From: Squalus acanthias
Lineage: Eukaryota
DNA: 64,000 nucleotides
Reading direction: 5' to 3'
NCBI GenBank assembly: GCA_030390025.1
Contig: JASTWF010000331.1
Coordinates: 186,001 to 250,000, forward strand
Shown: one piece after another, positions 19,698-59,119 of the stretch
How the letters are laid out: the number at the start of each line of letters is the position of its first letter
Position numbering within the stretch: the stretch's first letter is position 1
Position numbers and translations under genes: made by a program
The notes under the pieces: model-generated
Seen by the model: only the letters and a program-made list of their open reading frames with translations
Told to the model about the DNA's origin: nothing
Databases searched by the model: none

Positions 19698-19763
19698 GTT
19701 TCTTGAGATTTAATGACATGAAGGCCACAGAATGTTTATCCGAAGTTCCCAGTCAGCTGAAAG
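19698..19763 (+). CDS. NLR gene coding exon 4 (66-nt linker)
   Basis: Acceptor TTTAAACAG (19697), donor AAG|GTAGGT (19764); phase 1 to 1. GFLRFNDMKATECLSEVPSQLK. Confidence 0.8.
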
Positions 19764-22985: not shown

Positions 22986-23100
22986 AATCCCCTTTTTACC
23001 TTCACAATAACATTAACATTTCCCTGCGACATCTAAACCGGAAATGTATCGAATTTCCCAAGTACTCAGCCAAGATCTGATCAAATAATTGAGGTACATA

Positions 23101-26100
23101 AGTACATTGTGCGCCTGTCCCCCTCTCAGTGCTGGCCAATCAGTACATTGTGAGCCTGCAGCCATCTCAGTGCTGGTCAATCAGTACATTGTGAGCCTGT
23201 CCCTCTCTCAGTGCTGGTCAATCAGTACATTGTGAGCCTGTCCCTCTCTCAGTGCTGCCCAATCAGTAAATTGTGAGTCTGTCCCTCTTTCAGTGCTGGT
23301 CAATCAGTACATTGTGAGTCTGTCCCTCTCTCAGTGCTGCCCAATCAGTACATTGTGAGTCTGTCCCTCTCTCAGTGCTGGTCAATCAGTACATTGTGAG
23401 TCTGTCCCTCTCTCAGTGCTGGTCAATCAGTACATTGTGAGTCTGTCCCTCTCTCAGTGCTGGTCAATCAGTACATTGTGAGCCTGTCCCTCTCTCAGTG
23501 CTGGTCAATCAGTACATTGTGAGTCTGTCCCTCTCTCAGTGCTGGTCAATCAGTACATTGTGAGTCTGTCCCTCTCTCAGTGCTGGTCAATCAGTACATT
23601 GTGAGCCTGTCCCTCTCTCAGTGCTGGTCAATCAGTACATTGTGAGTCTGTCCCTCTCTCAGTGCTGGTCAATCAGTACATTGTGAGCCTGTCCCTCTCT
23701 CAGTGCTGGCCAATCAGTACATTGTGAGCCTGTCCCCCTCTCAGTGCTGGTCAATCAGTACATTGTGAGCCTGTCCCCTCTCAGTGCTGGTCAATCAGTA
23801 CATTGTGAGCCTGTCCCTCTCTCAGTGCTGGTCAATCAGTACATTGTGAGTCTGTCCCTCTCTCAGTGCTGGTCAATCAGTACATTGTGAGTCTGTCCCT
23901 CTCTCAGTGCTGGTCAATCAGTACATTGTGAGTCTGTCCCTCTCTCAGTGCTGGTCAATCAGTACATTGTGAGCCTGTCCCTCTCTCAGTGCTGCCCAAT
24001 CAGTACATTGTGAGTCTGTCCCTCTCTCAGTGCTGTCAATCAGTACATTGTGAGTCTGTCCCTCTCTCAGTGCTGGTCAATCAGTACATTGTGAGTCTGT
24101 CCCTCTCTCAGTGCTGGTCAATCAGTACATTGTGAGTCTGTCCCTCTCTCAGTGCTGGTCAATCAGTACATTGTGAGTCTGTCCCTCTCTCAGTGCTGGT
24201 CAATCAGTACATTGTGAGCCTGTCCCTCTCTCAGTGCTGGTCAATCAGTACATTGTGAGTCTGTCCCTCTCTCAGTGCTGGTCAATCAGTACATTGTGAG
24301 TCTGTCCCTCTCTCAGTGCTGGTCAATCAGTACATTGTGAGTCTGTCCCTCTCTCAGTGCTGGTCAATCAGTACATTGTGAGCCTGTCCCTCTCTCAGTG
24401 CTGGTCAATCAGTACATTGTGAGCCTGTCCCTCTCTCAGTGCTGGTCAATCAGTACATTGTGAGCCTGTCCCTCTCTCAGTGCTGGTCAATCAGTACATT
24501 GTGAGTCTGTCCCTCTCTCAGTGCTGGTCAATCAGTACATTGTGAGCCTGTCCCTCTCTCAGTGCTGGTCAATCAGTACATTGTGAGTCTGTCCCTCTCT
24601 CAGTGCTGTCAATCAGTACATTGTGAGTCTGTCCCTCTCTCAGTGCTGGTCAATCAGTACATTGTGAGCCTGTCCCTCTCTCAGTGCTGGTCAATCAGTA
24701 CATTGTGAGTCTGTCCCTCTCTCAGTGCTGTCAATCAGTACATTGTGAGTCTGTCCCTCTCTCAGTGCTGGTCAATCAGTACATTGTGAGTCTGTCCCTC
24801 TCTCAGTGCTGGTCAATCAGTACATTGTGAGCCTGTCCCTCTCTCAGTGCTGTCAATCAGTACATTGTGAGTCTGTCCCTCTCTCAGTGCTGGTCAATCA
24901 GTACATTGTGAGTCTGTCCCTCTCTCAGAGCTGCCCAATCAGTACATTGTGAGCTGTCCCTCTCTCAGTGCTGGTCAATCAGTACATTGTGAGTCTGTCC
25001 CACTCTCAGTGCTGGCTCAATCAGTACATTGTGAGCCTGTCCCTCTCTCAGGTGCTGGTCAATCAGTACATTGTGAGTCTGTCCCTCTCTCAGTGCTGGT
25101 CAATCAGTACATTGTGAGTCTGTCCCACTCTCAGTGCTGGTCAATCAGTACATTGTGAGCTCTGTCCCTCTCTCAGTGCTGGTCAATCAGTACATTGTGA
25201 GCCTGTCCCTCTCTCAGTGCTGCCCAATCAGTACATTGTTGAGACTGTCCCTCTCTCAGTGCTGGTCAATCAGTACATTGTGAGTCTGTCCCTCTCTCAG
25301 TGCTGGTCAATCAGTACATTGTGAGTCTGTCCCTCTCTCAGTGCTGGCCCAATCAGTACATTGTGAGTCTGTCCCTCTCTCAGTGCTGGTCCAATCAGTA
25401 CATTGTGAGTCTGTCCCTCTCTCAGTGCTGGTCAATCAGTACATTGTGAGCCTGTCCCTCTCTCAGTGCTGGTCAATCAGTACATTGTGAGCCTGTCCCT
25501 CTCTCAGTGCTGGTCAATCAGTACATTGTGAGTCTGTCCCTCTCTCAGTGCTGGTCAATCAGTACATTGTGAGCCTGTCCCTCTCTCAGTGCTGGTCAAT
25601 CAGTACATTGTGAGCCTGTCCCTCTCTCAGTGCTGGTCAATCAGTACATTGTGAGTCTGTCCCTCTCTCAGTGCTGGTCAATCAGTACATTGTGAGTCTG
25701 TCCCTCTCTCAGTGCTGGTCAATCAGTACATTGTGAGTCTGTCCCTCTCTCAGTGCTGGTCAATCAGTACATTGTGAGCCTGTCCCTCTCTCAGTGCTGG
25801 TCAATCAGTACATTGTGAGTCTGTCCCTCTCTCAGTGCTGGTCAATCAGTACATTGTGAGTCTGTCCCTCTCTCAGTGCTGGTCAATCAGTACATTGTGA
25901 GTCTGTCCCTCTCTCAGTGCTGGTCAATCAGTACATTGTGAGCCTGTCCCTCTCTCAGTGCTGGTCAATCAGTACATTGTGAGCCTGTCCCTCTCTCAGT
26001 GCTGGTCAATCAGTACATTGTGAGTCTGTCCCTCTCTCAGTGCTGGTCAATCAGTACATTGTGAGTCTGTCCCTCTCTCAGTGCTGGTCAATCAGTACAT

Positions 26101-29100
26101 TGTGAGCCTGTCCCTCTCTCAGTGCTGGTCAATCAGTACATTGTGAGTCTGTCCCTCTCTCAGTGCTGGTCAATCAGTACATTGTGAGCCTGTCCCTCTC
26201 TCAGTGCTGGTCAATCAGTACATTGTGAGTCTGTCCCTCTCTCAGTGCTGGTCAATCAGTACATTGTGAGTCTGTCCCTCTCTCAGTGCTGGTCAATCAG
26301 TACATTGTGAGTCTGTCCCTCTCTCAGTGCTGTCAATCAGTACATTGTGAGCCTGTCCCTCTCTCAGTGCTGGTCAATCAGTACATTGTGAGTCTGTCCC
26401 TCTCTCAGTGCTGGTCAATCAGTACATTGTGAGTCTGTCCCTCTCTCAGTGCTGGTCAATCAGTACATTGTGAGTCTGTCCCTCTCTCAGTGCTGCCCAA
26501 TCAGTACATTGTGAGTCTGTCCCTCTCTCAGTGCTGGTCAATCAGTACATTGTGAGTCTGTCCCTCTCTCAGTGCTGGTCAATCAGTACATTGTGAGTCT
26601 GTCCCTCTCTCAGTGCTGCCAATCAGTACATTGTGAGCCTGTCCCTCTCTCAGTGCTGGTCAATCAGTACATTGTGAGCCTGTCCCTCTCTCAGTGCTGG
26701 TCAATCAGTACATTGTGAGCCTGTCCCTCTCTCAGTGCTGGTCAATCAGTACATTGTGAGCCTGTCCCTCTCTCAGTGCTGGTCAATCAGTACATTGTGA
26801 GCCTGTCCCTCTCTCAGTGCTGCCAATCAGTACATTGTGAGCCTGTCCCTCTCTCAGTGCTGCCCAATCAGTACATTGTGAGCCTGTCCCTCTCTCAGTG
26901 CTGGTCAATCAGTACATTGTGAGTCTGTCCCTCTCTCAGTGCTGGTCAATCAGTACATTGTGAGTCTGTCCCTCTCTCAGTGCTGGTCAATCAGTACATT
27001 GTGAGTCTGTCCCTCTCTCAGTGCTGCCAATCAGTACATTGTGAGCTGTCCCTCTCTCAGTGCTGGTCAATCAGTACATTGTGAGTCTGTCCCTCTCTCA
27101 GTGCTGGCCAATCAGTACATTGTGAGTCTGTCCCTCTCTCAGTGCTGGTCAATCAGTACATTGTGAGCCTGTCCCTCTCTCAGTGCTGGTCAATCAGTAC
27201 ATTGTGAGCCTGTCCCTCTCTCAGTGCTGGTCAATCAGTACATTGTGAGCCTGTCCCTCTCTCAGTGCTGGTCAATCAGTACATTGTGAGTCTGTCCCTC
27301 TCTCAGTGCTGGTCAATCAGTACATTGTGAGTCTGTCCCTCTCTCAGTGCTGGTCAATCAGTACATTGTGAGTCTGTCCCTCTCTCAGTGCTGGTCAATC
27401 AGTACATTGTGAGTCTGTCCCTCTCTCAGTGCTGGTCAATCAGTACATTGTGAGTCTGTCCCTCTCTCAGTGCTGGTCAATCAGTACATTGTGAGTCTGT
27501 CCCTCTCTCAGTGCTGGTCAATCAGTACATTGTGAGTCTGTCCCTCTCTCAGTGCTGTCAATCAGTACATTGTGAGCCTGTCCCTCTCTCAGTGCTGGTC
27601 AATCAGTACATTGTGAGCCTGTCCCTCTCTCAGTGCTGCCAATCAGTACATTGTGAGTCTGTCCCTCTCTCAGTGCTGGTCAATCAGTACATTGTGAGCC
27701 TGTCCCTCTCTCAGTGCTGGTCAATCAGTACATTGTGAGCCTGTCCCTCTCTCAGTGCTGGTCAATCAGTACATTGTGAGTCTGTCCCTCTCTCAGTGCT
27801 GGTCAATCAGTACATTGTGAGTCTGTCCCTCTCTCAGTGCTGGTCAATCAGTACATTGTGAGCCTGTCCCTCTCTCAGTGCTGGTCAATCAGTACATTGT
27901 GAGTCTGTCCCTCTCTCAGTGCTGGTCAATCAGTACATTGTGAGCCTGTCCCTCTCTCAGTGCTGGTCAATCAGTACATTGTGAGTCTGTCCCTCTCTCA
28001 GTGCTGGTCAATCAGTACATTGTGAGCCTGTCCCCCTCTCAGTGCTGGTCAATCAGTACATTGTGAGCCTGTCCCTCTCTCAGTGCTGGTCAATCAGTAC
28101 ATTGTGAGCCTGTCCCTCTCTCAGTGCTGGTCAATCAGTACATTGTGAGTCTGTCCCTCTCTCAGTGCTGGTCAATCAGTACATTGTGAGTCTGTCCCTC
28201 TCTCAGTGCTGGTCAATCAGTACATTGTGAGTCTGTCCCTCTCTCAGTGCTGCCCAATCAGTACATTGTGTGTCTGTCCCTCTCTCAGTGCTGGTCAATC
28301 AGTACATTGTGAGTCTGTCCCTCTCTCAGTGCTGCCCAATCAGTACATTGTGAGTCTGTCCCTCTCTCAGTGCTGGTCAATCAGTACATTGTGAGCCTGT
28401 CACTCTCTCAGTGCTGGTCAATCAGTACATTGTGAGTCTGTCCCTCTCTCAGTGCTGGTCAATCAGTACATTGTGAGTCTGTCCCTCTCTCAGTGCTGCC
28501 CAATCAGTACATTGTGAGTCTGTCCCTCTCTCAGTGCTGGTCAATCAGTACATTGTGAGCCTGTCCCTCTCTCAGTGCTGGTCAATCAGTACATTGTGAG
28601 CCTGTCCCTCTCTCAGTGCTGCCCAATCAGTACATTGTGAGCCTGTCCCTCTCTCAGTGCTGCCCAATCAGTACATTGTGAGCCTGTCCCTCTCTCAGTG
28701 CTGGTCAATCAGTACATTGTGAGCCTGTCCCTCTCTCAGTGCTGGTCAATCAGTACATTGTGAGCCTGTCCCTCTCTCAGTGCTGCCCAATCAGTACATT
28801 GTGAGCCTGTCCCTCTCTCAGTGCTGGTCAATCAGTACATTGTGAGCCTGTCCCTCTCTCAGTGCTGCCCAATCAGTACATTGTGAGTCTGTCCCTCTCT
28901 CAGTGCTGGTCAATCAGTACATTGTGAGCCTGTCCCTCTCTCAGTGCTGGTCAATCAGTACATTGTGAGCCTGTCCCTCTCTCAGTGCTGGTCAATCAGT
29001 ACATTGTGAGCCTGTCCCTCTCTCAGTGCTGGTCAATCAGTACATTGTGAGTCTGTCCCTCTCTCAGTGCTGGTCAATCAGTACATTGTGAGTCTGTCCC

Positions 29101-32100
29101 TCTCTCAGTGCTGGTCAATCAGTACATTGTGAGTCTGTCCCTCTCTCAGTGCTGCCCAATCAGTACATTGTGAGTCTGTCCCTCTCTCAGTGCTGGACAA
29201 TCAGTACATTGTGAGCCTGTCCCTCTCTCAGTGCTGCCCAATCAGTACATTGTGAGTCTGTCCCTCTCTCAGTGCTGGTCAATCAGTACATTGTGAGCCT
29301 GTCCCCTCTCAGTGCTGGTCAATCAGTACATTGTGAGCCTGTCCCTCTCTCAGTGCTGCTCAATCAGTACATTGTGAGCCTGTCCCTCTCTCAGTGCTGG
29401 TCAATCAGTACATTGTGAGTCTGTCCCTCTCTCAGTGCTGGTCAATCAGTACATTGTGAGCCTGTCCCTCTCTCAGTGCTGGTCAATCAGTACATTGTGA
29501 GTCTGTCCCTCTCTCAGTGCTGGTCAATCAGTACATTGTGAGCCTGTCCCCTCTCTCAGTGCTGGTCAATCAGTACATTGTGAGCCTGTCCCTCTCTCAG
29601 TGCTGGTCAATCAGTACATTGTGAGCCTGTCCCTCTCTCAGTGCTGGTCAATCAGTACATTGTGAGTCTGTCCCTCTCTCAGTGCTGGTCAATCAGTACA
29701 TTGTGAGTCTGTCCCTCTCTCAGTGCTGCCCAATCAGTACATTGTGAGCCTGTCCCTCTCTCAGTGCTGCCCAATCAGTACATTGTGAGTCTGTCCCTCT
29801 CTCAGTGCTGGTCAATCAGTACATTGTGAGTCTGTCCCTCTCTCAGTGCTGGTCAATCAGTACATTGTGAGTCTGTCCCTCTCTCAGTGCTGGTCAATCA
29901 GTACATTGTGAGCCTGTCCCTCTCTCAGTGCTGGTCAATCAGTACATTGTGAGCCTGTCCCTCTCTCAGTGCTGCCCAATCAGTACATTGTGAGTCTGTC
30001 CCTCTCTCAGTGCTGGTCAATCAGTACATTGTGAGTCTGTCCCTCTCTCAGTGCTGCCCAATCAGTACATTGTGAGTCTGTCCCTCTCTCAGTGCTGGTC
30101 AATCAGTACATTGTGAGCCTGTCCCTCTCTCAGTGCTGGTCAATCAGTACATTGTGAGTCTGTCCCTCTCTCAGTGCTGGTCAATCAGTACATTGTGAGT
30201 CTGTCCCTCTCTCAGTGCTGCCCAATCAGTACATTGTGAGTCTGTCCCTCTCTCAGTGCTGGTCAATCAGTACATTGTGAGTCTGTCCCTCTCTCAGTGC
30301 TGGTCAATCAGTACATTGTGAGTCTGTCCCTCTCTCAGTGCTGCCCAATCAGTACATTGTGAGCCTGTCCCTCTCTCAGTGCTGCCCAATCAGTACATTG
30401 TGAGCCTGTCCCTCTCTCAGTGCTGGTCAATCAGTACATTGTGAGCCTGTCCCTCTCTCAGTGCTGGTCAATCAGTACATTGTGAGCCTGTCCCTCTCTC
30501 AGTGCTGGTCAATCAGTACATTGTGAGTCTGTCCCTCTCTCAGTGCTGGTCAATCAGTACATTGTGAGCCTGTCCCTCTCTCAGTGCTGGTCAATCAGTA
30601 CATTGTGAGCCTGTCCCTCTCTCAGTGCTGCCCAATCAGTACATTGTGAGCCTGTCCCTCTCTCAGTGCTGGTCAATCAGTACATTGTGAGTCTGTCCCT
30701 CTCTCAGTGCTGCCCAATCAGTACATTGTGAGTCTGTCCCTCTCTCAGTGCTGGTCAATCAGTACATTGTGAGCCTGTCCCTCTCTCAGTGCTGGTCAAT
30801 CAGTACATTGTGAGCCTGTCCCTCTCTCAGTGCTGCCCAATCAGTACATTGTGAGCCTGTCCCTCTCTCAGTGCTGCCCAATCAGTACATTGTGAGCCTG
30901 TCCCTCTCTCAGTGCTGGTCAATCAGTACATTGTGCGCCTGTCCCTCTCTCAGTGCTGGTCAATCAGTACATTGTGAGCCTGTCCCTCTCTCAGTGCTGC
31001 CCAATCAGTACATTGTGAGCCTGTCCCTCTCTCAGTGCTGGTCAATCAGTACATTGTGAGCCTGTCCCTCTCTCAGTGCTGCCCAATCAGTACATTGTGA
31101 GTCTGTCCCTCTCTCAGTGCTGGTCAATCAGCACATTGTGCGCCTGTACCACTCTCAGCGCTGGTCAATCAGTACATTGTGAGCCTGTCCCCCTCTCAGT
31201 GCTGGTCAATCAGTACATTGTGAGCCTGTCACTCTCTCAGTGCTGGTCAATCAGTAGATTGTGAGTCTGTCCCTCTCACAGTGCTGGTCAATCAGTACAT
31301 TGTGAGTCTTTCCCTCTCTCAGTGCTGGTCAATCAGTACATTGTGAGTCTGTCCCTCTCTCAGTGCTGCCCAATCAGTACATTGTGAGTCTGTCCCTCTC
31401 TCAGTGCTGGACAATCAGTACATTGTGAGCCTGTCCCTCTCTCAGTGCTGCCCAATCAGTACATTGTGAGTCTGTCCCTCTCTCAGTGCTGGTCAATTAG
31501 CACATTGTGAGCCTGTACACCTCTCAGCTTTGGTCAATCAGTACATTGTGAGCCTGTACCTCTCTCAGTGCTTGTCAATCAGTACATTGTGAGCCTGTCC
31601 CTCTCTCAGTGCTGGTCAATCAGTACATTGTGAGTCTGTCCCTCTCTCTGTGCTGGTCAATCAGTACATTGTGAGCCTGTCCCTCTCTCAGTGCTGGTCA
31701 ATCAGTACATTGTGAGTCTGTCCCTCTCTCAGTGCTGGTCAATCAGTACATTGTGAGCCTGTCCCCCCCTCAGTGCTGGTCAATCAGTACATTGTGAGCC
31801 TGTCACTCTCTCAGCGCTGGTCAATCAGTACATTGTGAGCCTGTCCCTCTCTCAGTGCTGGTCAATCAGTACATTGTGAGTCTGTCCCTCTCTCAGTGCT
31901 GGTCAATCAGTACATTGTGAGTCTGTCCCTCTCTCAGTGCTGCCCAATGAGCAAATTGTGAGCCTGTCCCTCTCTCAATGCTGCCCAATCAGTACATTGT
32001 GAGTCTGTCCCTCTCTCAGTGCTGGTCAATCAGTACATTGTGAGTCTGTCCCTCTCTCAGTGCTGGTCAATCAGTACATTGTGAGTCTGTCCCTCTCTCA

Positions 32101-35100
32101 GTGCTGGTCAATCAGTACATTGTGAGCCTGTCCCTCTCTCAGTGCTGGTCAATCAGTACATTGTGAGCCTGTCCCTCTCTTAGTGCTGCCCAATCAGTAC
32201 ATTGTGTGTCTGTCCCTCTCTCAGTGCTGGTCAATCAGTACATTGTGAGTCTGTGCCTCTCTCAGTGCTGCCCAATCAGTACATTGTGAGTCTGTCCCTC
32301 TCTCAGCGCTGGTCAATCAGTACACTGTGAGCCTGTCACTCTCTCAGTGCTGGTCAATCAGTACATTGTGTGTCTGTCCCTCTCTCAGTGCTGGTCAATC
32401 AGTACATTGTGAGTCTGTCCCTCTCTCAGTGCTGCCCAATCAGTACATTGTGAGTCTGTCCCTCTCTCAGTGCTGGTCTATCAGTACATTGTGAGTCTGT
32501 CCCTCTCTCAGTGCTGGTCAATCAGTACATTGTGAGTCTGTCCCTCTCTCAGTGCTGCCCAATCAGTACATTGTGAGCCTGTCCCTCTCTCAGAGCTGCC
32601 CAATCAGTACATTGTGAGCCTGTCCCCCTCTCAGTGCTGGTCAATCAGTACATTGTGCGCCTGTCCCTCTCTCAGTGCTGGTCAATCTGTACATTGTGAG
32701 CCTGTCCCTCTCTCTCTGCTGGTCAATCAGTACATTGTGAGTCTGTCCCTCTCTCTGTGCAGGTCAATCAGTATATTGTGAGCCTGTCCCTCTCTCTGTG
32801 CTGGTCAATCAGTACATTGTGAGCCTGTCCCTCTCTCAGTGCTGCCCAATCAGTACATTGTGAGCCTGTCCCTCTCTCAGTGCTGGTCAATCAGTACATT
32901 GTGAGCCTGTCCCTCTCTCAGTGCTGCCCAATCAGTACATTGTGAGTCTGTCCCTCTCTCAGTGCTGGTCAATCAGCACATTGTGAGCCTGTACACCTCT
33001 CAGCGCTGGTCAATCAGTACATTGTGAGCCTGTCCCCCTCTCAGTGCTGGTCAATCAGTACATTGTGAGTCTGTCACTCTCTCAGTGCTGCCCAATCAGT
33101 ACATTGTGAGCCTGTCCCTCTCTCAGTGCTGGTCAATCAGTACATTGTGCGCCTGTCCCTCTCTCAGTGCTGGTCAATCTGTACATTGTGAGCCTGTCCC
33201 TCTCTCAGTGCTGGTCAATCAGTACATTGTGAGTCTGTCCCTCTCTCTGTGCTGGTCAATCAGTACATTGTGAGCCTGTCCCTCTCTCAGTGCTGGTCAA
33301 TCAGTACATTGTGAGTCTGTCCCTCTCTCAGTGCTGCCCAAACAGTACATTGTGAGTCTGTCCCTCTCTCAGTGCTGCCCAATCAGTACATTGTGAGTCT
33401 GTCCCTCTCCCAGTGCTGCCCAATGTTTACATTGTGAGCCTGTCCCTCTCAGTGCTGGTCAGTCAGTACATTGTGAGTCTGTCCCTCTCTCAGTGCTGCC
33501 CAATGTTTACATTGTGAGTCTGTCCCTCTCTCAGTGCTGGTCAATCAGTACATTGTGAGTCTGTCCCTCTCTCAGTGCTGGTCAATCAGTACATTGTGAG
33601 CCTGTCCCCCTCTCAGTGCTGGTCAATCAGTACATTGTGAGCCTCTCCCTCTCTCAGTGCTGGTCAATCAGTACATTGTGAGCCTGTCCCCCTCTCAGTG
33701 CTGCCCAATCAGTACATTGTGAGCCTGTCCCTCTCTCAGTGCTGCTCAATCAGTACATTGTGAGCCTGTCCCCCTCTCAGTGCTCGTCAATCAGTACATT
33801 GTGAGTCTGTCCCTCTCTTAGAGCTGCCCAATCAGTACATTGTGAGTCTGTCCCTCTCTCAGTGCTGCCCAATCAGTACATTGTGAGTCTGTCCCTCTCT
33901 CAGTGCTGGCCAATCAGTACATTGTGAGCCTGTCCCCCTCTCAGTGCTGGCCAATCAGTACATTGTGAGCCTGTCCCCCTCTCAGTGCTGGCCAATCAGT
34001 ACATTGTGAGCCTGTCCCCCTCTCAGTGCTGGTCAATCAGTACATTGTGAGCCTGTCACTCTCTCAGCGCTGGTCAATCAGTACATTGTGAGCCTGTCCC
34101 CCTCTCAGTGCTGGTCAATCAGTACATTGTGAGCCTGTCACTCTCTCAGCGCTGGTCAATCAGTACATTGTGAGCCTGTCCCTCTCTCAGTGCTGGTCAA
34201 TCAGTACATTGTGAGTCTGTCCCTCTCTCAGTGCTGGTCAATCAGTACATTGTGAGTCTTTCCCTCTCTCAGTGCTGGTCAATCAGTACATTGTGAGTCT
34301 GTCCCTCACTCAGTGCTGCCCAATCAGTACATTGTGAGCCTGTCCCCCTCTCAGTGCTGGTCAATCAGTACATTGTGAGTCTGTCCCTCTCTCAGTGCTG
34401 GTCAATCAGTACATTGTGAGCCTGTCCCTCTCTCAGTGATGCCCAATCAGTACATTGTGAGTCTGTCCCCCTCTCAGTGCTGGTCAATCAGTACATTGTG
34501 TGTCTGTCCCTCTCTCAGTGCTGGTCAATCAGTACATTGTGAGTCTGTCCCTCTCTCAGTGCTGCCCAATCAGTACATTGTGAGCCTCTCCCTCTCTCAG
34601 TGCTGGTCAATCAGTACATTGTGAGTCTGTCCCTCTCTCAGTGCTGGCCAATCAGTACATTGTGAGCCTGTCCCCCTCTCAGTGCTGGTCAATCAGTACA
34701 TTGTGAGCCTGTCCCTCTCTCAGTGCTGGTCAATCAGTAAATTGTGAGTCTGTCCCTCTCTCAGTGCTGGTCAATCAGTACATTGTGAGCCTGTCACTCT
34801 CTCAGCGCTGGTCAATCAGTACATTGTGAGCCTGTCCCCCTCTCAGTGCTGGTCAATCAGTACATTGTGAGCCTGTCACTCTCTCAGCGCTGGTCAATCA
34901 GTACATTGTGAGCCTGTCCCTCTCTCAGTGCTGGTCAATCAGTACATTGTGAGTCTGTCCCTCTCTCAGTGCTGGTCAATCAGTACATTGTGAGTCTGTC
35001 CCTCTCTCAGTGCTGGTCAATCAGTACATTGTGAGTCTGTCCCTCACTCAGTGCTGCCCAATCAGTACATTGTGAGCCTGTCCCCTCTCAGTGCTGGTCA

Positions 35101-44100: not shown

Positions 44101-47100
44101 GCTGGTCAATCAGTACATTGTGAGTCTGTCCCTCTCTCAGTGCTGGTCAATCAGTACATTGTGAGTCTGTCCCTCTCTCAGTGCTGGTCAATCAGTACAT
44201 TGTGAGCCTGTCCCTCTCTCAGTGCTGGTCAATCAGTACATTGTGAGTCTGTCCCTCTCTCAGTGCTGGTCAATCAGTACATTGTGAGTCTGTCCCTCTC
44301 TCAGTGCTGGTCAATCAGTACATTGTGAGTCTGTCCCTCTCTCAGTGCTGGTCAATCAGTACATTGTGAGCCTGTCCCTCTCTCAGTGCTGGTCAATCAG
44401 TACATTGTGAGTCTGTCCCTCTCTCAGTGCTGGTCAATCAGTACATTGTGAGCCTGTCCCTCTCTCAGTGCTGGTCAATCAGTACATTGTGAGTCTGTCC
44501 CTCTCTCAGTGCTGGTCAATCAGTACATTGTGAGTCTGTCCCTCTCTCAGTGCTGGTCAATCAGTACATTGTGAGCCTGTCCCTCTCTCAGTGCTGGTCA
44601 ATCAGTACATTGTGAGTCTGTCCCTCTCTCAGTGCTGGTCAATCAGTACATTGTGAGTCTGTCCCTCTCTCAGTGCTGGTCAATCAGTACATTGTGAGTC
44701 TGTCCCTCTCTCAGTGCTGGTCAATCAGTACATTGTGAGTCTGTCCCTCTCTCAGTGCTGGTCAATCAGTACATTGTGAGTCTGTCCCTCTCTCAGTGCT
44801 GGTCAATCAGTACATTGTGAGCCTGTCCCTCTCTCAGTGCTGGTCAATCAGTACATTGTGAGTCTGTCCCTCTCTCAGTGCTGCCCAATCAGTACATTGT
44901 GAGTCTGTCCCTCTCTCAGTGCTGCCCAATCAGTACATTGTGAGCCTGTCCCTCTCTCAGTGCTGCCCAATCAGTACATTGTGAGACTGTCCCTCTCTCA
45001 GTGCTGATCAATCAGTACATTGTGAGCCTGTCCCTCTCTCAGTGCTGTCAATCAGTACATTGTGAGCCTGTCCCTCTCTCAGTGCTGGTCAATCAGTACA
45101 TTGTGAGTCTGTCCCTCTCTCAGTGCTGCCCAATCAGTACATTGTGAGACTGTCCCTCTCTCAGTGCTGGTCAATCAGTACATTGTGAGTCTGTCCCTCT
45201 CTCAGTGCTGCCCAATCAGTACATTGTGAGACTGTCCCTCTCTCAGTGCTGGTCAATCAGTACATTGTGAGACTGTCCCTCTCTCAGTGCTGGCCAATCA
45301 GTACATTGTGAGTCTGTCCCTCTCTCAGTGCTGCTCAATCAGTACATTGTGAGTCTGTCCCTCTCTCAGTGCTGGCCAATCAGTACATTGTGAGCCTGTC
45401 CCTCTCTCAGTGCTGTCAATCAGTACATTGTGAGCCTGTCCCTCTCTCAGTGCTGGTCAATCAGTACATTGTGAGTCTGTCCCTCTCTCAGTGCTGGCCA
45501 ATCAGTACATTGTGAGCCTGTCCCTCTCTCAGTGCTGGTCAATCAGTACATTGTGAGTCTGTCCCTCTCTCAGTGCTGTCCAATCAGTACATTGTGAGTC
45601 TGTCCCTCTCTCAGTGCTGGTCAATCAGTACATTGTGAGTCTGTCCCTCTCTCAGTGCTGCCAATCAGTACATTGTGAGTCTGTCCCTCTCTCAGTGCTG
45701 GTCAATCAGTACATTGTGAGTCTGTCCCTCTCTCAGTGCTGGTCAATCAGTACATTGTGAGCCTGTCCCTCTCTCAGTGCTGGTCAATCAGTACATTGTG
45801 AGTCTGTCCCTCTCTCAGTGCTGGTCAATCAGTACATTGTGAGCCTGTCCCTCTCTCAGTGCTGCCCAATCAGTACATTGTGAGTCTGTCCCTCTCTCAG
45901 TGCTGCCCAATCAGTACATTGTGAGTCTGTCCCTCTCTCAGTGCTGGTCAATCAGTACATTGTGAGCTGTCCCTCTCTCAGTGCTGCCCAATCAGTACAT
46001 TGTGAGTCTGTCCCTCTCTCAGTGCTGCCCAATCAGTACATTGTGAGCCTGTCCCTCTCTCAGTGCTGCCCAATCAGTACATTGTGAGCCTGTCCCTCTC
46101 TCAGTGCTGGTCAATCAGTACATTGTGAGCCTGTCCCTCTCTCAGTGCTGGTCAATCAGTACATTGTGAGCCTGTCCCTCTCTCAGTGCTGGTCAATCAG
46201 TACATTGTGAGTCTGTCCCTCTCTCAGTGCTGCCCAATCAGTACATTGTGAGACTGTCCCTCTCTCAGTGCTGCTCAATCAGTACATTGTGAGTCTGTCC
46301 CTCTCTCAGTGCTGTCAATCAGTACATTGTGAGTCTGTCCCTCTCTCAGTGCTGCCCAATCAGTACATTGTGAGTCTGTCCCTCTCTCAGTGCTGCCCAA
46401 TCAGTACATTGTGAGTCTGTCCCTCTCTCAGTGCTGTCCAATCAGTACATTGTGAGTCTGTCCCTCTCTCAGTGCTGCCCAATCAGTACATTGTGAGTCT
46501 GTCCCTCTCTCAGTGCTGGTCAATCAGTACATTGTGAGTCTGTCCCTCTCTCAGTGCTGTCAATCAGTACATTGTGAGTCTGTCCCTCTCTCAGTGCTGC
46601 TCAATCAGTACATTGTGAGTCTGTCCCTCTCTCAGTGCTGTCCAATCAGTACATTGTGAGTCTGTCCCTCTCTCAGTGCTGGTCAATCAGTACATTGTGA
46701 GTCTGTCCCTCTCTCAGTGCTGGTCCAATCAGTACATTGTGAGTCTGTCCCTCTCTCAGTGCTGTCAATCAGTACATTGTGAGCCTGTCCCCTCTCAGTG
46801 CTGGTCAATCAGTACATTGTGAGTCTGTCCCTCTCTCAGTGCTGGTCAATCAGTACATTGTGAGTCTGTCCCTCTCTCAGTGCTGGTCAATCAGTACATT
46901 GTGAGTCTGTCCCTCTCTCAGTGCTGCCCAATCAGTACATTGTGAGTCTGTCCCTCTCTCAGTGCTGCCAATCAGTACATTGTGAGCCTGTCCCTCTCTC
47001 AGTGCTGCCCAATCAGTACATTGTGAGCCTGTCCCTCTCTCAGTGCTGCCCAATCAGTACATTGTGAGCCTGTCCCTCTCTCAGTGCTGCCAATCAGTAC

Positions 47101-50100
47101 ATTGTGAGCCTGTCCCTCTCTCAGTGCTGCCAATCAGTACATTGTGAGCCTGTCCCTCTCTCAGTGCTGTCAATCAGTACATTGTGAGTCTGTCCCTCTC
47201 TCAGTGCTGCCAATCAGTACATTGTGAGTCTGTCCCTCTCTCAGTGCTGCCAATCAGTACATTGTGAGTCTGTCCCTCTCTCAGTGCTGCCAATCAGTAC
47301 ATTGTGAGTCTGTCCCTCTCTCAGTGCTGCCAATCAGTACATTGTGAGTCTGTCCCTCTCTCAGTGCTGCCCAATCAGTACATTGTGAGCCTGTCCCTCT
47401 CTCAGTGCTGCCAATCAGTACATTGTGAGTCTGTCCCTCTCTCAGTGCTGTCCAATCAGTACATTGTGAGCCTGTCCCTCTCTCAGTGCTGCCCAATCAG
47501 TACATTGTGAGTCTGTCCCTCTCTCAGTGCTGCCAATCAGTACATTGTGAGCCTGTCCCTCTCTCAGTGCTGCCAATCAGTACATTGTGAGCCTGTCCCT
47601 CTCTCAGTGCTGCCAATCAGTACATTGTGAGTCTGTCCCTCTCTCAGTGCTGGTCAATCAGTACATTGTGAGTCTGTCCCTCTCTCAGTGCTGGTCAATC
47701 AGTACATTGTGAGTCTGTCCCTCTCTCAGTGCTGCCAATCAGTACATTGTGAGTCTGTCCCTCTCTCAGTGCTGCCAATCAGTACATTGTGAGCCTGTCC
47801 CTCTCTCAGTGCTGTCAATCAGTACATTGTGAGTCTGTCCCTCTCTCAGTGCTGCCCAATCAGTACATTGTGAGCCTGTCCCTCTCTCAGTGCTGGTCAA
47901 TCAGTACATTGTGAGCCTGTCCCTCTCTCAGTGCTGGTCAATCAGTACATTGTGAGTCTGTCCCTCTCTCAGTGCTGCCCAATCAGTACATTGTGAGTCT
48001 GTCCCTCTCTCAGTGCTGCTCAATCAGTACATTGTGAGTCTGTCCCTCTCTCAGTGCTGGTCAATCAGTACATTGTGAGCCTGTCCCTCTCTCAGTGCTG
48101 TCAATCAGTACATTGTGAGTCTGTCCCTCTCTCAGTGCTGGCAATCAGTACATTGTGAGTCTGCCCCTCTCTCAGTGCTGGCCAATCAGTACATTGTGAG
48201 TCTGTCCCTCTCTCAGTGCTGTCAATCAGTACATTGTGAGCCTGTCCCTCTCTCAGTGCTGGTCAATCAGTACATTGTGAGCCTGTCCCTCTCTCAGTGC
48301 TGGTCAATCAGTACATTGTGAGCCTGTCCCTCTCTCAGTGCTGGTCAATCAGTACATTGTGAGTCTGTCCCTCTCTCAGTGCTGGTCAATCAGTACATTG
48401 TGAGTCTGTCCCTCTCTCAGTGCTGCCAATCAGTACATTGTGAGTCTGTCCCTCTCTCAGTGCTGTCAATCAGTACATTGTGAGCCTGTCCCTCTCTCAG
48501 TGCTGTCAATCAGTACATTGTGAGCCTGTCCCTCTCTCAGTGCTGCCAATCAGTACATTGTGAGTCTGTCCCTCTCTCAGTGCTGCCAATCAGTACATTG
48601 TGAGTCTGTCCCTCTCTCAGTGCTGCCAATCAGTACATTGTGAGCCTGTCCCTCTCTCAGTGCTGTCAATCAGTACATTGTGAGTCTGTCCCTCTCTCAG
48701 TGCTGCCAATCAGTACATTGTGAGTCTGTCCCTCTCTCAGTGCTGCCAATCAGTACATTGTGAGTCTGTCCCTCTCTCAGTGCTGCCAATCAGTACATTG
48801 TGAGTCTGTCCCTCTCTCAGTGCTGTCCAATCAGTACATTGTGAGCCTGTCCCTCTCTCAGTGCTGCCCAATCAGTACATTGTGAGTCTGTCCCTCTCTC
48901 AGTGCTGCCCAATCAGTACATTGTGAGTCTGTCCCTCTCTCAGTGCTGCCCAATCAGTACATTGTGAGCCTGTCCCTCTCTCAGTGCTGTCAATCAGTAC
49001 ATTGTGAGTCTGTCCCTCTCTCAGTGCTGCCCAATCAGTACATTGTGAGTCTGTCCCTCTCTCAGTGCTGTCCAATCAGTACATTGTGAGCCTGTCCCTC
49101 TCTCAGTGCTGCCCAATCAGTACATTGTGAGCCTGTCCCTCTCTCAGTGCTGCCCAATCAGTACATTGTGAGTCTGTCCCTCTCTCAGTGCTGGTCAATC
49201 AGTACATTGTGAGTCTGTCCCTCTCTCAGTGCTGGTCAATCAGTACATTGTGAGCCTGTCCCTCTCTCAGTGCTGCCCAATCAGTACATTGTGAGTCTGT
49301 CCCTCTCTCAGTGCTGCCCAATCAGTACATTGTGAGTCTGTCCCTCTCTCAGTGCTGCCCAATCAGTACATTGTGAGTCTGTCCCTCTCTCAGTGCTGGT
49401 CAATCAGTACATTGTGAGCCTGTCCCTCTCTCAGTGCTGGTCAATCAGTACATTGTGAGCCTGTCCCTCTCTCAGTGCTGGTCAATCAGTACATTGTGAG
49501 TCTGTCCCTCTCTCAGTGCTGGTCAATCAGTACATTGTGAGCCTGTCCCCTCTCAGTGCTGTCAATCAGTACATTGTGAGTCTGTCCCTCTCTCAGTGCT
49601 GCCCAATCAGTACATTGTGAGTCTGTCCCTCTCTCAGTGCTGGTCAATCAGTACATTGTGAGTCTGTCCCTCTCTCAGTGCTGCCCAATCAGTACATTGT
49701 GAGTCTGTCCCTCTCTCAGTGCTGGTCAATCAGTACATTGTGAGTCTGTCCCTCTCTCAGTGCTGGTCCAATCAGTACATTGTGAGTCTGTCCCTCTCTC
49801 AGTGCTGCTCAATCAGTACATTGTGAGTCTGTCCCTCTCTCAGTGCTGTCAATCAGTACATTGTGAGCCTGTCCCTCTCTCAGTGCTGGTCAATCAGTAC
49901 ATTGTGAGTCTGTCCCTCTCTCAGTGCTGTCAATCAGTACATTGTGAGTCTGTCCCTCTCTCAGTGCTGGTCAATCAGTACATTGTGAGCCTGTCCCTCT
50001 CTCAGTGCTGCCAATCAGTACATTGTGAGTCTGTCCCTCTCTCAGTGCTGTCCAATCAGTACATTGTGAGTCTGTCCCTCTCTCAGTGCTGCCCAATCAG

Positions 50101-53100
50101 TACATTGTGAGTCTGTCCCTCTCTCAGTGCTGTCAATCAGTACATTGTGAGCCTGTCCCTCTCTCAGTGCTGGTCAATCAGTACATTGTGAGCCTGTCCC
50201 TCTCTCAGTGCTGGTCAATCAGTACATTGTGAGCCTGTCCCTCTCTCAGTGCTGGTCAATCAGTACATTGTGAGTCTGTCCCTCTCTCAGTGCTGCCCAA
50301 TCAGTACATTGTGAGCCTGTCCCTCTCTCAGTGCTGTCAATCAGTACATTGTGAGTCTGTCCCTCTCTCAGTGCTGCCCAATCAGTACATTGTGAGCCTG
50401 TCCCTCTCTCAGTGCTGCCCAATCAGTACATTGTGAGTCTGTCCCTCTCTCAGTGCTGCCAATCAGTACATTGTGAGCCTGTCCCTCTCTCAGTGCTGAC
50501 CAATCAGTACATTGTGAGTCTGTCCCTCTCTCAGTGCTGCCCAATCAGTACATTGTGAGCCTGTCCCTCTCTCAGTGCTGCTCAATCAGTACATTGTGAG
50601 TCTGTCCCTCTCTCAGTGCTGCCCAATCAGTACATTGTGAGTCTGTCCCTCTCTCAGTGCTGTCAATCAGTACATTGTGAGTCTGTCCCTCTCTCAGTGC
50701 TGCCAATCAGTACATTGTGAGTCTGTCCCTCTCTCAGTGCTGTCAATCAGTACATTGTGAGCCTGTCCCTCTCTCAGTGCTGTCAATCAGTACATTGTGA
50801 GTCTGTCCCTCTCTCAGTGCTGTCAATCAGTACATTGTGAGTCTGTCCCTCTCTCAGTGCTGCCAATCAGTACATTGTGAGTCTGTCCCTCTCTCAGTGC
50901 TGCCAATCAGTACATTGTGAGTCTGTCCCTCTCTCAGTGCTGCCCAATCAGTACATTGTGAGCCTGTCCCTCTCTCAGTGCTGCCCAATCAGTACATTGT
51001 GAGTCTGTCCCTCTCTCAGTGCTGCCCAATCAGTACATTGTGAGCCTGTCCCTCTCTCAGTGCTGTCCAATCAGTACATTGTGAGCCTGTCCCTCTCTCA
51101 GTGCTGCCAATCAGTACATTGTGAGTCTGTCCCTCTCTCAGTGCTGGTCAATCAGTACATTGTGAGCCTGTCCCTCTCTCAGTGCTGTCCAATCAGTACA
51201 TTGTGAGTCTGTCCCTCTCTCAGTGCTGCCCAATCAGTACATTGTGAGTCTGTCCCTCTCTCAGTGCTGCCAATCAGTACATTGTGAGTCTGTCCCTCTC
51301 TCAGTGCTGCCCAATCAGTACATTGTGAGCCTGTCCCTCTCTCAGTGCTGCCAATCAGTACATTGTGAGTCTGTCCCTCTCTCAGTGCTGTCAATCAGTA
51401 CATTGTGAGTCTGTCCCTCTCTCAGTGCTGGTCAATCAGTACATTGTGAGTCTGTCCCTCTCTCAGTGCTGGTCAATCAGTACATTGTGAGCCTGTCCCT
51501 CTCTCAGTGCTGTCAATCAGTACATTGTGAGTCTGTCCCTCTCTCAGTGCTGCCAATCAGTACATTGTGAGTCTGTCCCTCTCTCAGTGCTGGTCAATCA
51601 GTACATTGTGAGTCTGTCCCTCTCTCAGTGCTGGTCAATCAGTACATTGTGAGTCTGTCCCTCTCTCAGTGCTGCCAATCAGTACATTGTGAGTCTGTCC
51701 CTCTCTCAGTGCTGGTCAATCAGTACATTGTGAGACTGTCCCTCTCTCAGTGCTGGTCAATCAGTACATTGTGAGCCTGTCCCTCTCTCAGTGCTGGTCA
51801 ATCAGTACATTGTGAGTCTGTCCCTCTCTCAGTGCTGGTCAATCAGTACATTGTGAGCCTGTCCCTCTCTCAGTGCTGGTCAATCAGTACATTGTGAGTC
51901 TGTCCCTCTCTCAGTGCTGTCAATCAGTACATTGTGAGCCTGTCCCTCTCTCAGTGCTGGTCAATCAGTACATTGTGAGCCTGTCCCTCTCTCAGTGCTG
52001 CCCAATCAGTACATTGTGAGTCTGTCCCTCTCTCAGTGCTGTCAATCAGTACATTGTGAGTCTGTCCCTCTCTCAGTGCTGCCCAATCAGTACATTGTGA
52101 GCCTGTCCCTCTCTCAGTGCTGCCAATCAGTACATTGTGAGTCTGTCCCTCTCTCAGTGCTGCCAATCAGTACATTGTGAGTCTGTCCCTCTCTCAGTGC
52201 TGCCCAATCAGTACATTGTGAGCCTGTCCCTCTCTCAGTGCTGGTCAATCAGTACATTGTGAGCCTGTCCCTCTCTCAGTGCTGGTCAATCAGTACATTG
52301 TGAGCCTGTCCCTCTCTCAGTGCTGGTCAATCAGTACATTGTGAGTCTGTCCCTCTCTCAGTGCTGCCAATCAGTACATTGTGAGCCTGTCCCTCTCTCA
52401 GTGCTGCCAATCAGTACATTGTGAGCCTGTCCCTCTCTCAGTGCTGCCAATCAGTACATTGTGAGCCTGTCCCTCTCTCAGTGCTGCCCAATCAGTACAT
52501 TGTGAGCCTGTCCCTCTCTCAGTGCTGCCAATCAGTACATTGTGAGTCTGTCCCTCTCTCAGTGCTGCCCAATCAGTACATTGTGAGACTGTCCCTCTCT
52601 CAGTGCTGCCCAATCAGTACATTGTGAGTCTGTCCCTCTCTCAGTGCTGCCAATCAGTACATTGTGAGCTGTCCCTCTCTCAGTGCTGCCAATCAGTACA
52701 TTGTGAGTCTGTCCCTCTCTCAGTGCTGCCAATCAGTACATTGTGAGTCTGTCCCTCTCTCAGTGCTGCCCAATCAGTACATTGTGAGTCTGTCCCTCTC
52801 TCAGTGCTGCCAATCAGTACATTGTGAGCCTGTCCCTCTCTCAGTGCTGGCCAATCAGTACATTGTGAGCCTGTCCCTCTCTCAGTGCTGGTCAATCAGT
52901 ACATTGTGAGTCTGTCCCTCTCTCAGTGCTGGTCCAATCAGTACATTGTGAGTCTGTCCCTCTCTCAGTGCTGTCCAATCAGTACATTGTGAGCCTGTCC
53001 CTCTCTCAGTGCTGGTCAATCAGTACATTGTGAGCCTGTCCCTCTCTCAGTGCTGGTCAATCAGTACATTGTGAGTCTGTCCCTCTCTCAGTGCTGGTCA

Positions 53101-56100
53101 ATCAGTACATTGTGAGCCTGTCCCTCTCTCAGTGCTGGTCAATCAGTACATTGTGAGTCTGTCCCTCTCTCAGTGCTGGTCAATCAGTACATTGTGAGCC
53201 TGTCCCTCTCTCAGTGCTGGTCAATCAGTACATTGTGAGTCTGTCCCTCTCTCAGTGCTGGTCAATCAGTACATTGTGAGTCTGTCCCTCTCTCAGTGCT
53301 GGTCAATCAGTACATTGTGAGCCTGTCCCTCTCTCAGTGCTGTCAATCAGTACATTGTGAGTCTGTCCCTCTCTCAGTGCTGGCCAATCAGTACATTGTG
53401 AGTCTGTCCCTCTCTCAGTGCTGCCAATCAGTACATTGTGAGCCTGTCCCTCTCTCAGTGCTGCCCAATCAGTACATTGTGAGTCTGTCCCTCTCTCAGT
53501 GCTGTCAATCAGTACATTGTGAGTCTGTCCCTCTCTCAGTGCTGGTCAATCAGTACATTGTGAGTCTGTCCCTCTCTCAGTGCTGGTCAATCAGTACATT
53601 GTGAGCCTGTCCCTCTCTCAGTGCTGGTCAATCAGTACATTGTGAGCCTGTCCCTCTCTCAGTGCTGCCCAATCAGTACATTGTGAGTCTGTCCCTCTCT
53701 CAGTGCTGCCCAATCAGTACATTGTGAGTCTGTCCCTCTCTCAGTGCTGCCCAATCAGTACATTGTGAGCCTGTCCCTCTCTCAGTGCTGCCAATCAGTA
53801 CATTGTGAGCCTGTCCCTCTCTCAGTGCTGCCCAATCAGTACATTGTGAGCCTGTCCCTCTCTCAGTGCTGCCCAATCAGTACATTGTGAGTCTGTCCCT
53901 CTCTCAGTGCTGGTCAATCAGTACATTGTGAGCCTGTCCCTCTCTCAGTGCTGTCAATCAGTACATTGTGAGCCTGTCCCTCTCTCAGTGCTGCCCAATC
54001 AGTACATTGTGAGTCTGTCCCTCTCTCAGTGCTGCCCAATCAGTACATTGTGAGTCTGTCCCTCTCTCAGTGCTGCCCAATCAGTACATTGTGAGCCTGT
54101 CCCTCTCTCAGTGCTGTCAATCAGTACATTGTGAGCCTGTCCCTCTCTCAGTGCTGCCAATCAGTACATTGTGAGCCTGTCCCTCTCTCAGTGCTGTCAA
54201 TCAGTACATTGTGAGTCTGTCCCTCTCTCAGTGCTGCCCAATCAGTACATTGTGAGTCTGTCCCTCTCTCAGTGCTGGTCAATCAGTACATTGTGAGTCT
54301 GTCCCTCTCTCAGTGCTGCCCAATCAGTACATTGTGAGTCTGTCCCTCTCTCAGTGCTGGCCAATCAGTACATTGTGAGCCTGTCCCTCTCTCAGTGCTG
54401 GTCAATCAGTACATTGTGAGTCTGTCCCTCTCTCAGTGCATGCCAATCAGTACATTGTGAGTCTGTCCCTCTCTCAGTGCTGGTCCAATCAGTACATTGT
54501 GAGCCTGTCCCTCTCTCAGTGCTGGTCAATCAGTACATTGTGAGTCTGTCCCTCTCTCAGTGCTGGTCAATCAGTACATTGTGAGTCTGTCCCTCTCTCA
54601 GTGCTGGTCAATCAGTACATTGTGAGTCTGTCCCTCTCTCAGTGCTGCTCAATCAGTACATTGTGAGTCTGTCCCTCTCTCAGTGCTGGTCAATCAGTAC
54701 ATTGTGAGTCTGTCCCTCTCTCAGTGCTGGTCAATCAGTACATTGTGAGTCTGTCCCTCTCTCAGTGCTGGTCAATCAGTACATTGTGAGTCTGTCCCTC
54801 TCTCAGTGCTGGTCAATCAGTACATTGTGAGTCTGTCCCTCTCTCAGTGCTGGTCAATCAGTACATTGTGAGCCTGTCCCTCTCTCAGTGCTGGCCAATC
54901 AGTACATTGTGAGTCTGTCCCTCTCTCAGTGCTGGTCAATCAGTACATTGTGAGACTGTCCCTCTCTCAGTGCTGGTCAATCAGTACATTGTGAGTCTGT
55001 CCCTCTCTCAGTGCTGGTCAATCAGTACATTGTGAGTCTGTCCCTCTCTCAGTGCTGGTCAATCAGTACATTGTGAGTCTGTCCCTCTCTCAGTGCTGGT
55101 CAATCAGTACATTGTGAGCCTGTCCCTCTCTCAGTGCTGGTCAATCAGTACATTGTGAGTCTGTCCCTCTCTCAGTGCTGTTCAATCAGTACATTGTGAG
55201 TCTGTCCCTCTCTCAGTGCTGGTCAATCAGTACATTGTGAGTCTGTCCCTCTCTCAGTGCTGGTCAATCAGTACATTGTGAGTCTGTCCCTCTCTCAGTG
55301 CTGGTCAATCAGTACATTGTGAGCCTGTCCCTCTCTCAGTGCTGCCCAATCAGTACATTGTGAGTCTGTCCCTCTCTCAGTGCTGCCCAATCAGTACATT
55401 GTGAGTCTGTCCCTCTCTCAGTGCTGCCCAATCAGTACATTGTGAGCCTGTCCCTCTCTCAGTGCTGGTCAATCAGTACATTGTGAGCCTGTCCCTCTCT
55501 CAGTGCTGCCCAATCAGTACATTGTGAGCCTGTCCCTCTCTCAGTGCTGCCCAATCAGTACATTGTGAGTCTGTCCCTCTCTCAGTGCTGTCAATCAGTA
55601 CATTGTGAGTCTGTCCCTCTCTCAGTGCTGGTCAATCAGTACATTGTGAGCCTGTCCCTCTCTCAGTGCTGCCCAATCAGTACATTGTGAGTCTGTCCCT
55701 CTCTCAGTGCTGCCCAATCAGTACATTGTGAGTCTGTCCCTCTCTCAGTGCTGCCCAATCAGTACATTGTGAGTCTGTCCCTCTCTCAGTGCTGGTCAAT
55801 CAGTACATTGTGAGCCTGTCCCTCTCTCAGTGCTGGTCAATCAGTACATTGTGAGCCTGTCCCTCTCTCAGTGCTGCCCAATCAGTACATTGTGAGTCTG
55901 TCCCTCTCTCAGTGCTGCCCAATCAGTACATTGTGAGTCTGTCCCTCTCTCAGTGCTGGTCAATCAGTACATTGTGAGTCTGTCCCTCTCTCAGTGCTGC
56001 CCAATCAGTACATTGTGAGTCTGTCCCTCTCTCAGTGCTGGTCAATCAGTACATTGTGAGTCTGTCCCTCTCTCAGTGCTGGTCAATCAGTACATTGTGA

Positions 56101-59100: not shown

Positions 59101-59119
59101 TCTCTCAGTGCTGCCCAAT
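23101..59119. repeat. 41-bp tandem satellite, ~36 kb, ~880 copies: AATCAGTACATTGTGAG(T/C)CTGTCCCTCTCTCAGTGCTG(GT/CC)C
   Basis: Uninterrupted head-to-tail array with no spacers or TE insertions seen. Copy number estimated as length/41. Confidence 0.99.

What the first reader, a model, noticed from the sequence alone, without database searches (positions are those of the whole stretch)
23101..59119. 36-kb homogeneous satellite occupying ~90% of the intron between effector and NACHT exons
Seen: intron 4 (19764-59497) holds ~880 near-identical 41-mers with no TE insertion, although flanking DNA is TE-saturated, and the NACHT exon ~380 bp downstream is intact. Inference: a very recent or continually homogenised expansion. 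Length variation could tune expression, or the array could promote recombination that swaps N-terminal and NACHT-LRR modules between paralogues if they share the repeat.
Basis: partly seen in the sequence, partly recalled or inferred. Interest (0 to 1): 0.7.

Follow-up and report, generated by a model that had tools for sequence, protein, structure and literature searches.

The report
Giant intronic minisatellite in shark NLR
About 880 copies of a 41-base repeat fill most of one intron of a shark-type immune sensor gene, and the same repeat sits at the same spot in dozens of sister genes at 3 to over 1,700 copies, so it is likely ordinary passenger repeat growth rather than a device for swapping gene parts.

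Summary
The array is real: 881 units of 41 bp (23101-59119), no insertion, 91% of intron 4 of an open NACHT-LRR gene. It is not special to this gene. Forty-four paralogous loci carry the same unit at the same intron position (3 to >1,700 units, median 17), and all 419 exact copies in the genome lie in NLR loci or their remnants. Both flanks adjoin short arrays in paralogues, so there is no misjoin. Other subfamilies carry a homologous 86-mer and a 39-mer there.

(1) Lack of TEs is expected: sister arrays hold 5 insertions in ~142 kb. (2) The homogeneity is likely partly an assembly artefact: 44-56 kb has almost no rare variants but 36% hybrid units. (3) Paralogue trees are no more discordant across the array than within the NACHT exon, so module swapping is unsupported.

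Each unit carries acceptor-like and donor-like motifs that are not conserved; an effect on splicing or expression is untested. The scan noted similar giant intronic arrays before, in other shark genes. Verdict: new member of a known kind (intronic VNTR); low interest.

The parts
6598..6661 (+). first coding exon (from ATG) of the NLR gene
   Evidence: joins in frame, GT donor
14921..15087 (+). exon 2, N-terminal domain (death-fold label comes from earlier notes, not shown here)
   Evidence: AG/GT ends, in frame; 91-93% matches in paralogues; no Pfam hit
19424..19595 (+). exon 3, N-terminal domain
   Evidence: exon 3-4 joint in family RNA-like contigs
19698..19763 (+). exon 4 (66 bp), typical of the 41-mer subfamily
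   Evidence: one contig runs from its end into exon 5
19764..23100 (+). left part of intron 4; mostly absent from paralogue L029, which keeps only the last ~260 bp; holds repeat fragments
23101..59119 (+). 41-bp minisatellite, 881 units; main variants at unit positions 14 (T/C) and 35-36 (GT/CC)
29000..35000 (+). variant-rich part of the array (1-2% rare variants, like sister arrays); approximate limits
44000..56000 (+). likely consensus-blurred part: 0-0.04% rare variants, 106 of 292 units with hybrid forms at positions 34-36; approximate limits
59120..59497 (+). right flank of the array, 378 bp, conserved next to the array in paralogues
59498..61235 (+). exon 5: NACHT, winged helix, HD2, first LRR; open
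   Evidence: donor position

Best explanation
This is a 41-bp intronic minisatellite (VNTR) shared at one site by a whole subfamily of shark-type NLR genes; it was likely born once by local duplication of ordinary intron sequence, was inherited through gene duplication, and likely grew to about 36 kb in this copy as a near-neutral passenger that is spliced out. Shown: same unit, site and flanks in 44 loci; heavy-tailed lengths; homology to a stretch of the 86-bp repeat of other subfamilies. Inferred: growth by slippage and unequal exchange, favouring little-mutated tracts; TEs land in such arrays at random and this one has not been hit; the assembled interior is partly a majority vote of mis-piled reads or of two alleles, so its uniformity and exact length are uncertain.
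For: 12 of 60 loci picked by NACHT similarity and 30 of 30 picked by the right flank carry the array next to that flank. Lengths 3-1,728 ungapped units, median 17; other giants: C2890 76 kb of repeat within 100 kb, C3497 about 25 kb, C29 11.6 kb. All 419 exact copies are in DNA I hold (400; 19). The unit and its left flank align to the 86-mer. Unit distance between loci at the 36 slow sites (5.4%) equals exon-5 fourfold non-CpG distance (5.7%; 861 pairs); no position-specific conservation within base class (p 0.09, 0.26). Short and giant arrays occur in both open and broken genes. Block duplications of the variant code occur in sister arrays. Comparable human case: TRACT, 3-30+ kb (PMC13131567).
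Against: Units of the giant arrays are closer to the family consensus than their flanks (window 0.5% vs 7.5%; C2890 1.5% vs 6.6%; lower in 43 of 44 loci, with the five most variable unit positions left out), which needs biased expansion, conversion between loci or blur. Every unit has acceptor-like and donor-like motifs on the sense strand. The repeat occurs only in NLR loci. No locus-specific reads or transcripts could be obtained. The window array lacks the long block duplications expected from unequal exchange (longest exact repeat 409 bp).
Confidence: 0.75

Rival explanations
1. The array dampens expression in proportion to its length. Each unit offers a cryptic acceptor (pyrimidine tract + CAG) and donor (GTGAG[T/C]); any cassette spliced in would shift the frame or add a stop. 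A long repetitive intron could also slow transcription or attract heterochromatin.
For: 864 acceptor-like and 867 donor-like motifs on the sense strand, 0 and 6 on the antisense; both motifs occur in 0.6% of shuffled units; all 7 cassette lengths tried (20-266 nt) are frameshifting or carry a stop. Precedents: ABCA7 VNTR length affects splicing and expression (PMC5954066, passages); long TRACT alleles lower expression (abstract).
Against: The AG and GT positions vary as much as or more than others (G29 6.3%, G9/T10 about 3%). The 0.6% figure is post hoc, and other repeats in these genes also hold one motif. The one contig leaving exon 4 by splicing goes to exon 5. Splice-like repeats in amphioxus 'mirages' and F7 IVS7 normally stay silent.
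Confidence: 0.12
2. The array is a recombination platform that swaps N-terminal and NACHT-LRR modules between paralogues.
For: The repeat is shared by paralogues at the module boundary. Trees from different parts of the gene reject each other in most AU tests. In several loci the array abuts a shortened left flank or another satellite. Shuffling and conversion are reported for zebrafish NLRs (10.1101/022061, passages).
Against: In 25 loci, sister pairs are the same on both sides of the array and the window groups with the same clade. Distance correlation left flank vs 5' half of exon 5 is 0.76, but 0.39 between the two halves of exon 5. Four-gamete incompatibility is 0.24-0.26 across the array and 0.24 across array-free intervals; trees share 9-11 of 22 splits either way. 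Caveats: short alignments, intron flanks as proxy for exons 2-4, most loci have short arrays.
Confidence: 0.07
3. The 36-kb size is largely an assembly artefact; the true array is much shorter or longer, though it sits at this site.
For: Zones with no rare variants and many hybrid units in this array and in the longest uninterrupted C2890 segment; scrambled variant code, longest identical run 9 units as in shuffles.
Against: 29-43 kb holds its own rare variants, different from those of the three other large arrays compared. Other giant arrays with TE anchors exist, and C973 repeats two C2890 segments at almost the same lengths (6,556/6,559 and 14,395/14,353 bp). Both flanks are orthologous.
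Confidence: 0.2
4. The unit is held constant across loci by selection on a motif, or by conversion between arrays of different genes.
For: No fixed differences at 36 sites in 42 of 44 loci; the same polymorphisms segregate in distant loci; unit distance 4.5% vs flank 8.1% in 300 pairs.
Against: The gap closes against the right flank (5.9%) and exon-5 silent sites (5.7%). Rare multi-site variants are shared mostly by sister loci; the apparent window-C2890 sharing was a frame artefact of 40-bp units.
Confidence: 0.15

Closest known systems
TRACT, the 30-bp VNTR in an intron of human CACNA1C (PMC13131567; abstract and section 12 read)
   Same: Intronic, unit of tens of bases, arrays of tens of kb, a few one-base variants, expansion proposed to run from perfect tracts.
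   Different: TRACT is a single locus with population data and expression links; here one site is shared by dozens of paralogues, arrays reach at least 76 kb, and no population or expression data exist.
ABCA7 intron 18 25-bp VNTR (PMC5954066; passages read) and F7 IVS7 37-bp VNTR (PMC1557585; abstract read)
   Same: Intronic minisatellites whose units carry splice signals.
   Different: Those start at a real exon boundary; this unit lies about 400 bp from the nearest exon and carries acceptor-like plus donor-like motifs of no shown use.
Amphioxus 'mirage' minisatellites in Adh3 and globin genes (PMC3087553; passages read)
   Same: Length-unstable intragenic repeats with AG/GT signals, reported not to disturb normal splicing.
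   Different: Mirages duplicate an exon-intron boundary and are short; this array does not include one.
Expanded fish NLR families: zebrafish NLR-B30.2 (10.1101/022061; passages) and the whale shark NLRP-related expansion (PMC8455134; passages)
   Same: Hundreds of similar NACHT exons (678 candidates), mosaic trees consistent with conversion; nearest solved structure NLRP3, E 3e-50.
   Different: The passages I saw do not mention intronic minisatellites; orthology to either family was not tested.

Membership tests
Intronic minisatellite / VNTR | Head-to-tail unit of roughly 10-100 bp | tested here: met
   41-bp unit, 881 copies
Intronic minisatellite / VNTR | Lies in an intron that is spliced out | tested here: inconclusive
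   Exon model open; exon 4-5 joint in one family contig, not locus-specific
Intronic minisatellite / VNTR | Copy number varies between homologous sites | tested here: met
   3 to 1,728 units among 44 paralogous loci
Intronic minisatellite / VNTR | Copy number varies between alleles of this locus | not testable with these tools
   No spanning reads; only contigs of short-read runs
Dispersed or centromeric satellite family | Arrays independent of one gene family | tested here: not met
   All 419 exact copies lie in NLR intron-4 loci, a near-copy of one (C973) or an NLR remnant (C2793); diverged copies elsewhere not excluded
Recombination-promoting element | Excess of phylogenetic breakpoints at the element | tested here: not met
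   (25 of 44 loci; limited power)
Exon-boundary ('mirage', F7-type) minisatellite | Unit includes a real exon-intron boundary | tested here: not met
   Array ends 378 bp before exon 5 and starts 3.3 kb after exon 4; no exon shown there
Vertebrate NLR (host gene) | NACHT, winged helix, HD2, LRR | tested here: met
Vertebrate NLR (host gene) | N-terminal death-fold domain | tested here: inconclusive
   No Pfam hit for exons 2 and 3 singly, no PDB hit for exon 3; CARD label comes from earlier notes

The most novel reading that the evidence does not exclude
Each 41-bp unit is a decoy micro-exon (acceptor, 20 nt, donor), so array length, which spans about 600-fold among sister NLR genes, sets how often a poison cassette is spliced in. 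Repeat growth would then be a mutable dial that turns individual members of a several-hundred-gene immune sensor family down or off without touching their coding sequence.
Probability: 0.07. Interest if true: 0.7.

Novelty: new member of a known kind. Interest (0 to 1): 0.25.

Why it matters
As read, it matters modestly. It helps explain why these NLR clusters fragment in assemblies, warns that uniformity inside long assembled arrays can be a consensus artefact, and gives a natural series of 44+ paralogues sharing one minisatellite site in which repeat birth and growth can be studied. If length did tune splicing or expression, it would be a fast-mutating control on an expanded immune gene family, testable across dozens of genes at once.

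Tried and rejected
1. Misjoin: rejected; both flanks adjoin short arrays in paralogues.
2. Repeat dispersed apart from NLRs: rejected for exact copies.
3. TE exclusion: rejected; 5 independent insertions in about 142 kb of sister arrays give about 1.3 expected in 36 kb, chance of none about 0.28 (my arithmetic).
4. 'Frozen unit' under selection: looked strong against flanks, mostly vanished against silent sites.
5. Direct transfer between the window and C2890 arrays: the shared runs were 40-bp frame artefacts.
6. Generic homopolymer errors as the cause of 40-bp units: unlikely, since the CCC at unit positions 19-21 is almost never shortened.
7. Coding use: the tandem has a stop every 41 codons in each sense frame.
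8. Pseudogene drift of the window gene: 7 silent and 10 replacement private changes in exon 5, like the family's 196 and 347.
10. Literature: four searches combining shark/elasmobranch or NLR with minisatellite, satellite, intron or expansion listed no paper on this repeat (listings only, open-access library); some searches gave only general listings and none. No supplements were read.
Full report
Observation. The array is there as described. TRF gives period 41 and 880.8 copies at 23101-59113. My alignment splits 23101-59119 into 881 units, all 39-43 bp, so nothing is inserted; 255 match the consensus, and most variation is at unit position 14 (T/C) and positions 34-36. Five exons (6598-6661, 14921-15087, 19424-19595, 19698-19763, 59498-61235) join without a stop (last donor corrected). 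Exon 5 has NACHT (E 3e-35), winged-helix and HD2 hits, and its nearest solved structure is NLRP3. Four open LRR exons follow beyond the window. The array is 91% of the 39,734-bp intron 4. RNA-like contigs of family members join exon 3 to 4 in 4 of 4 runs and exon 4 to 5 in one contig; they are not locus-specific. 'Shark-type' and 'CARD' are labels from earlier scan notes and recall; exons 2 and 3 singly gave no Pfam hit.

A subfamily-wide site. The genome has 678 NACHT candidates, of which 75 were scored; I fetched 60 of the 74 others. Twelve of 60 carry the 41-mer, always ending 370-420 bp before exon 5 or before the same right flank. A search with that flank scored 40 of 135 candidates; the 30 new loci I fetched from it all carry the array there. 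With the window and C2890 this makes 44 loci, with 3 to 1,728 ungapped units, median 17 (some arrays are cut by the fetched stretch). Many keep both of the window's flanks, so the window is no misjoin. All 419 exact consensus copies in the genome are in DNA I hold (400, 19). Two places lack a NACHT exon in the DNA fetched: C973, a 98% copy of part of the C2890 locus, and C2793, which lies beside sequence 93% like this gene's intron 5. Diverged copies elsewhere are not excluded. The window's array is not the largest: C2890 has 76 kb of repeat within 100 kb, C3497 about 25 kb, one C29 locus 11.6 kb.

Origin. Many paralogues without the 41-mer carry a 39-mer (32 loci) and an 86-mer (27 loci) in the same intron. 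The 41-mer with its left flank aligns to one 86-bp unit. So the 41-mer likely arose by duplicating part of an ordinary intron stretch, or by trimming an older 86-mer. Paralogue L029 shows a minimal form: a roughly 850-bp intron with 5 units.

Absence of TEs. Sister arrays hold five independent insertions. Three are in C2890: a tandem LTR element, a Penelope-like element and a retrovirus-like element, all with long open frames. One is shared by L026/L056/L085 and one by L086/L087/L112. That is 5 in about 142 kb, about 1.3 expected in 36 kb, so none is unremarkable (my arithmetic). C2890 has its own uninterrupted 35.7-kb segment.

Homogeneity. At 44-56 kb the 36 slow positions show 0-0.04% variants, against 1-2% at 29-35 kb and about 2% in most of C2890. 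In that same stretch 106 of 292 units carry hybrids of the two common forms at positions 34-36, against 38 of 533 elsewhere in the array and 37 of 838 in the L loci, where the 40-bp forms are 3 of 838. The same pairing of features occurs in the middle of the longest C2890 segment. The window array also lacks long block duplications (409 bp at most, against 4.4 kb in C2890 and 1.4 kb in L053), and its variant code is no more ordered than local shuffles. I infer majority voting over mis-piled reads or two alleles; a real, very recent burst is the alternative. A young expansion remains likely, but the assembled uniformity cannot date it.

Module swapping. In the 25 of 44 loci with both flanks and exon 5, sister pairs are the same on both sides of the array and the window stays with one clade. 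Distance correlation is 0.76 between the left flank and the first half of exon 5, 0.46 between the two flanks, and 0.39 between the two halves of exon 5. Four-gamete incompatibility is 0.26 and 0.24 across the array, 0.24 and 0.24 across array-free intervals, and 0.26 within the left flank; trees share 9-11 of 22 splits in every single-part comparison and mostly reject each other. The genes are mosaic throughout, as reported for zebrafish NLRs (10.1101/022061, passages), with no excess at the array. Power is limited: alignments of 295-899 columns, flanks standing in for exons 2-4, mostly short arrays.

Selection on the unit. The consensus at slow positions is the same in 42 of 44 loci, and units are closer to it than flanks are to theirs in 43 of 44 (2.8% vs 5.3%). 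But this leaves out the five most variable positions; between-locus unit distance (5.4%; 8.3% with all positions) matches exon-5 fourfold non-CpG distance (5.7%), and variants are spread evenly within base class. Apparent sharing of rare variants between the window and C2890 was an artefact. What remains, giant arrays on long branches with near-consensus units, fits expansion from little-mutated tracts as proposed for TRACT (PMC13131567, section 12), plus blur.

Splice-like motifs. Each unit has a pyrimidine tract with CAG and, 20 nt later, GTGAG[T/C] on the sense strand; all seven cassette lengths tried would frameshift or stop. The AG and GT are not conserved, and no contig was seen splicing into the array (very thin evidence). 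ABCA7 shows that such repeats can alter splicing (PMC5954066, passages); F7 and amphioxus mirages show they are often silent (PMC1557585, abstract; PMC3087553, passages). This is the most novel open reading, at about 7%.

Verdict. An ordinary intronic minisatellite in the long tail of its subfamily's length distribution: new member of a known kind, interest 0.25. Four searches listed no paper on this repeat. Earlier scan notes report similar giant intronic arrays in shark MHC and thyroglobulin genes; I did not test them.

Noticed in passing
window 1-3199: G-rich 49-bp minisatellite (66 copies seen, runs off the window start) about 3.4 kb upstream of the first coding exon.
   Followed up: no
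L002-L060 (paralogues without the 41-mer): 39-bp (32 loci) and 86-bp (27 loci) minisatellites in the same intron; the 86-mer is homologous to the 41-mer site and has subfamily variants. This intron is repeat-prone family-wide.
   Followed up: partly
G000:C2890:67184-184500: About 100 kb of 41-mer with three TE insertions, abutted directly by at least 17 kb of an unrelated 40-bp satellite; exons 3-4 not found in the DNA fetched.
   Followed up: partly
G000:C2890:140052-152626 (L069-L070); copy on C973: 12.6-kb LTR element with long gag-like, pol and env-like open frames inside the array; pol has RT, RNase H and integrase hits; the two copies are 98% alike. Described only.
   Followed up: partly
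L083 7353-7428; L084 5957-6975: Short inverted segments inside 41-mer arrays.
   Followed up: no
L021, L083, C3497; L026, L056, L085: The array abuts a shortened left flank (ends at intron position 494 or about 2150), suggesting deletions that end in the array.
   Followed up: no
L101 (about 67.5-68.9 kb from window start): Four LRR exons in a 312-bp tandem; further on, a 12.7-kb array of an 18-bp unit.
   Followed up: partly
window 12139-14908 and 62121-63430: Penelope-like elements (GIY-YIG hit for the second), about 81-84% like the open copy inserted in the C2890 array.
   Followed up: partly
window 19424, run X13: One RNA-like contig joins an exon-1-like sequence directly to exon 3, skipping exon 2, in some family member.
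   Followed up: no
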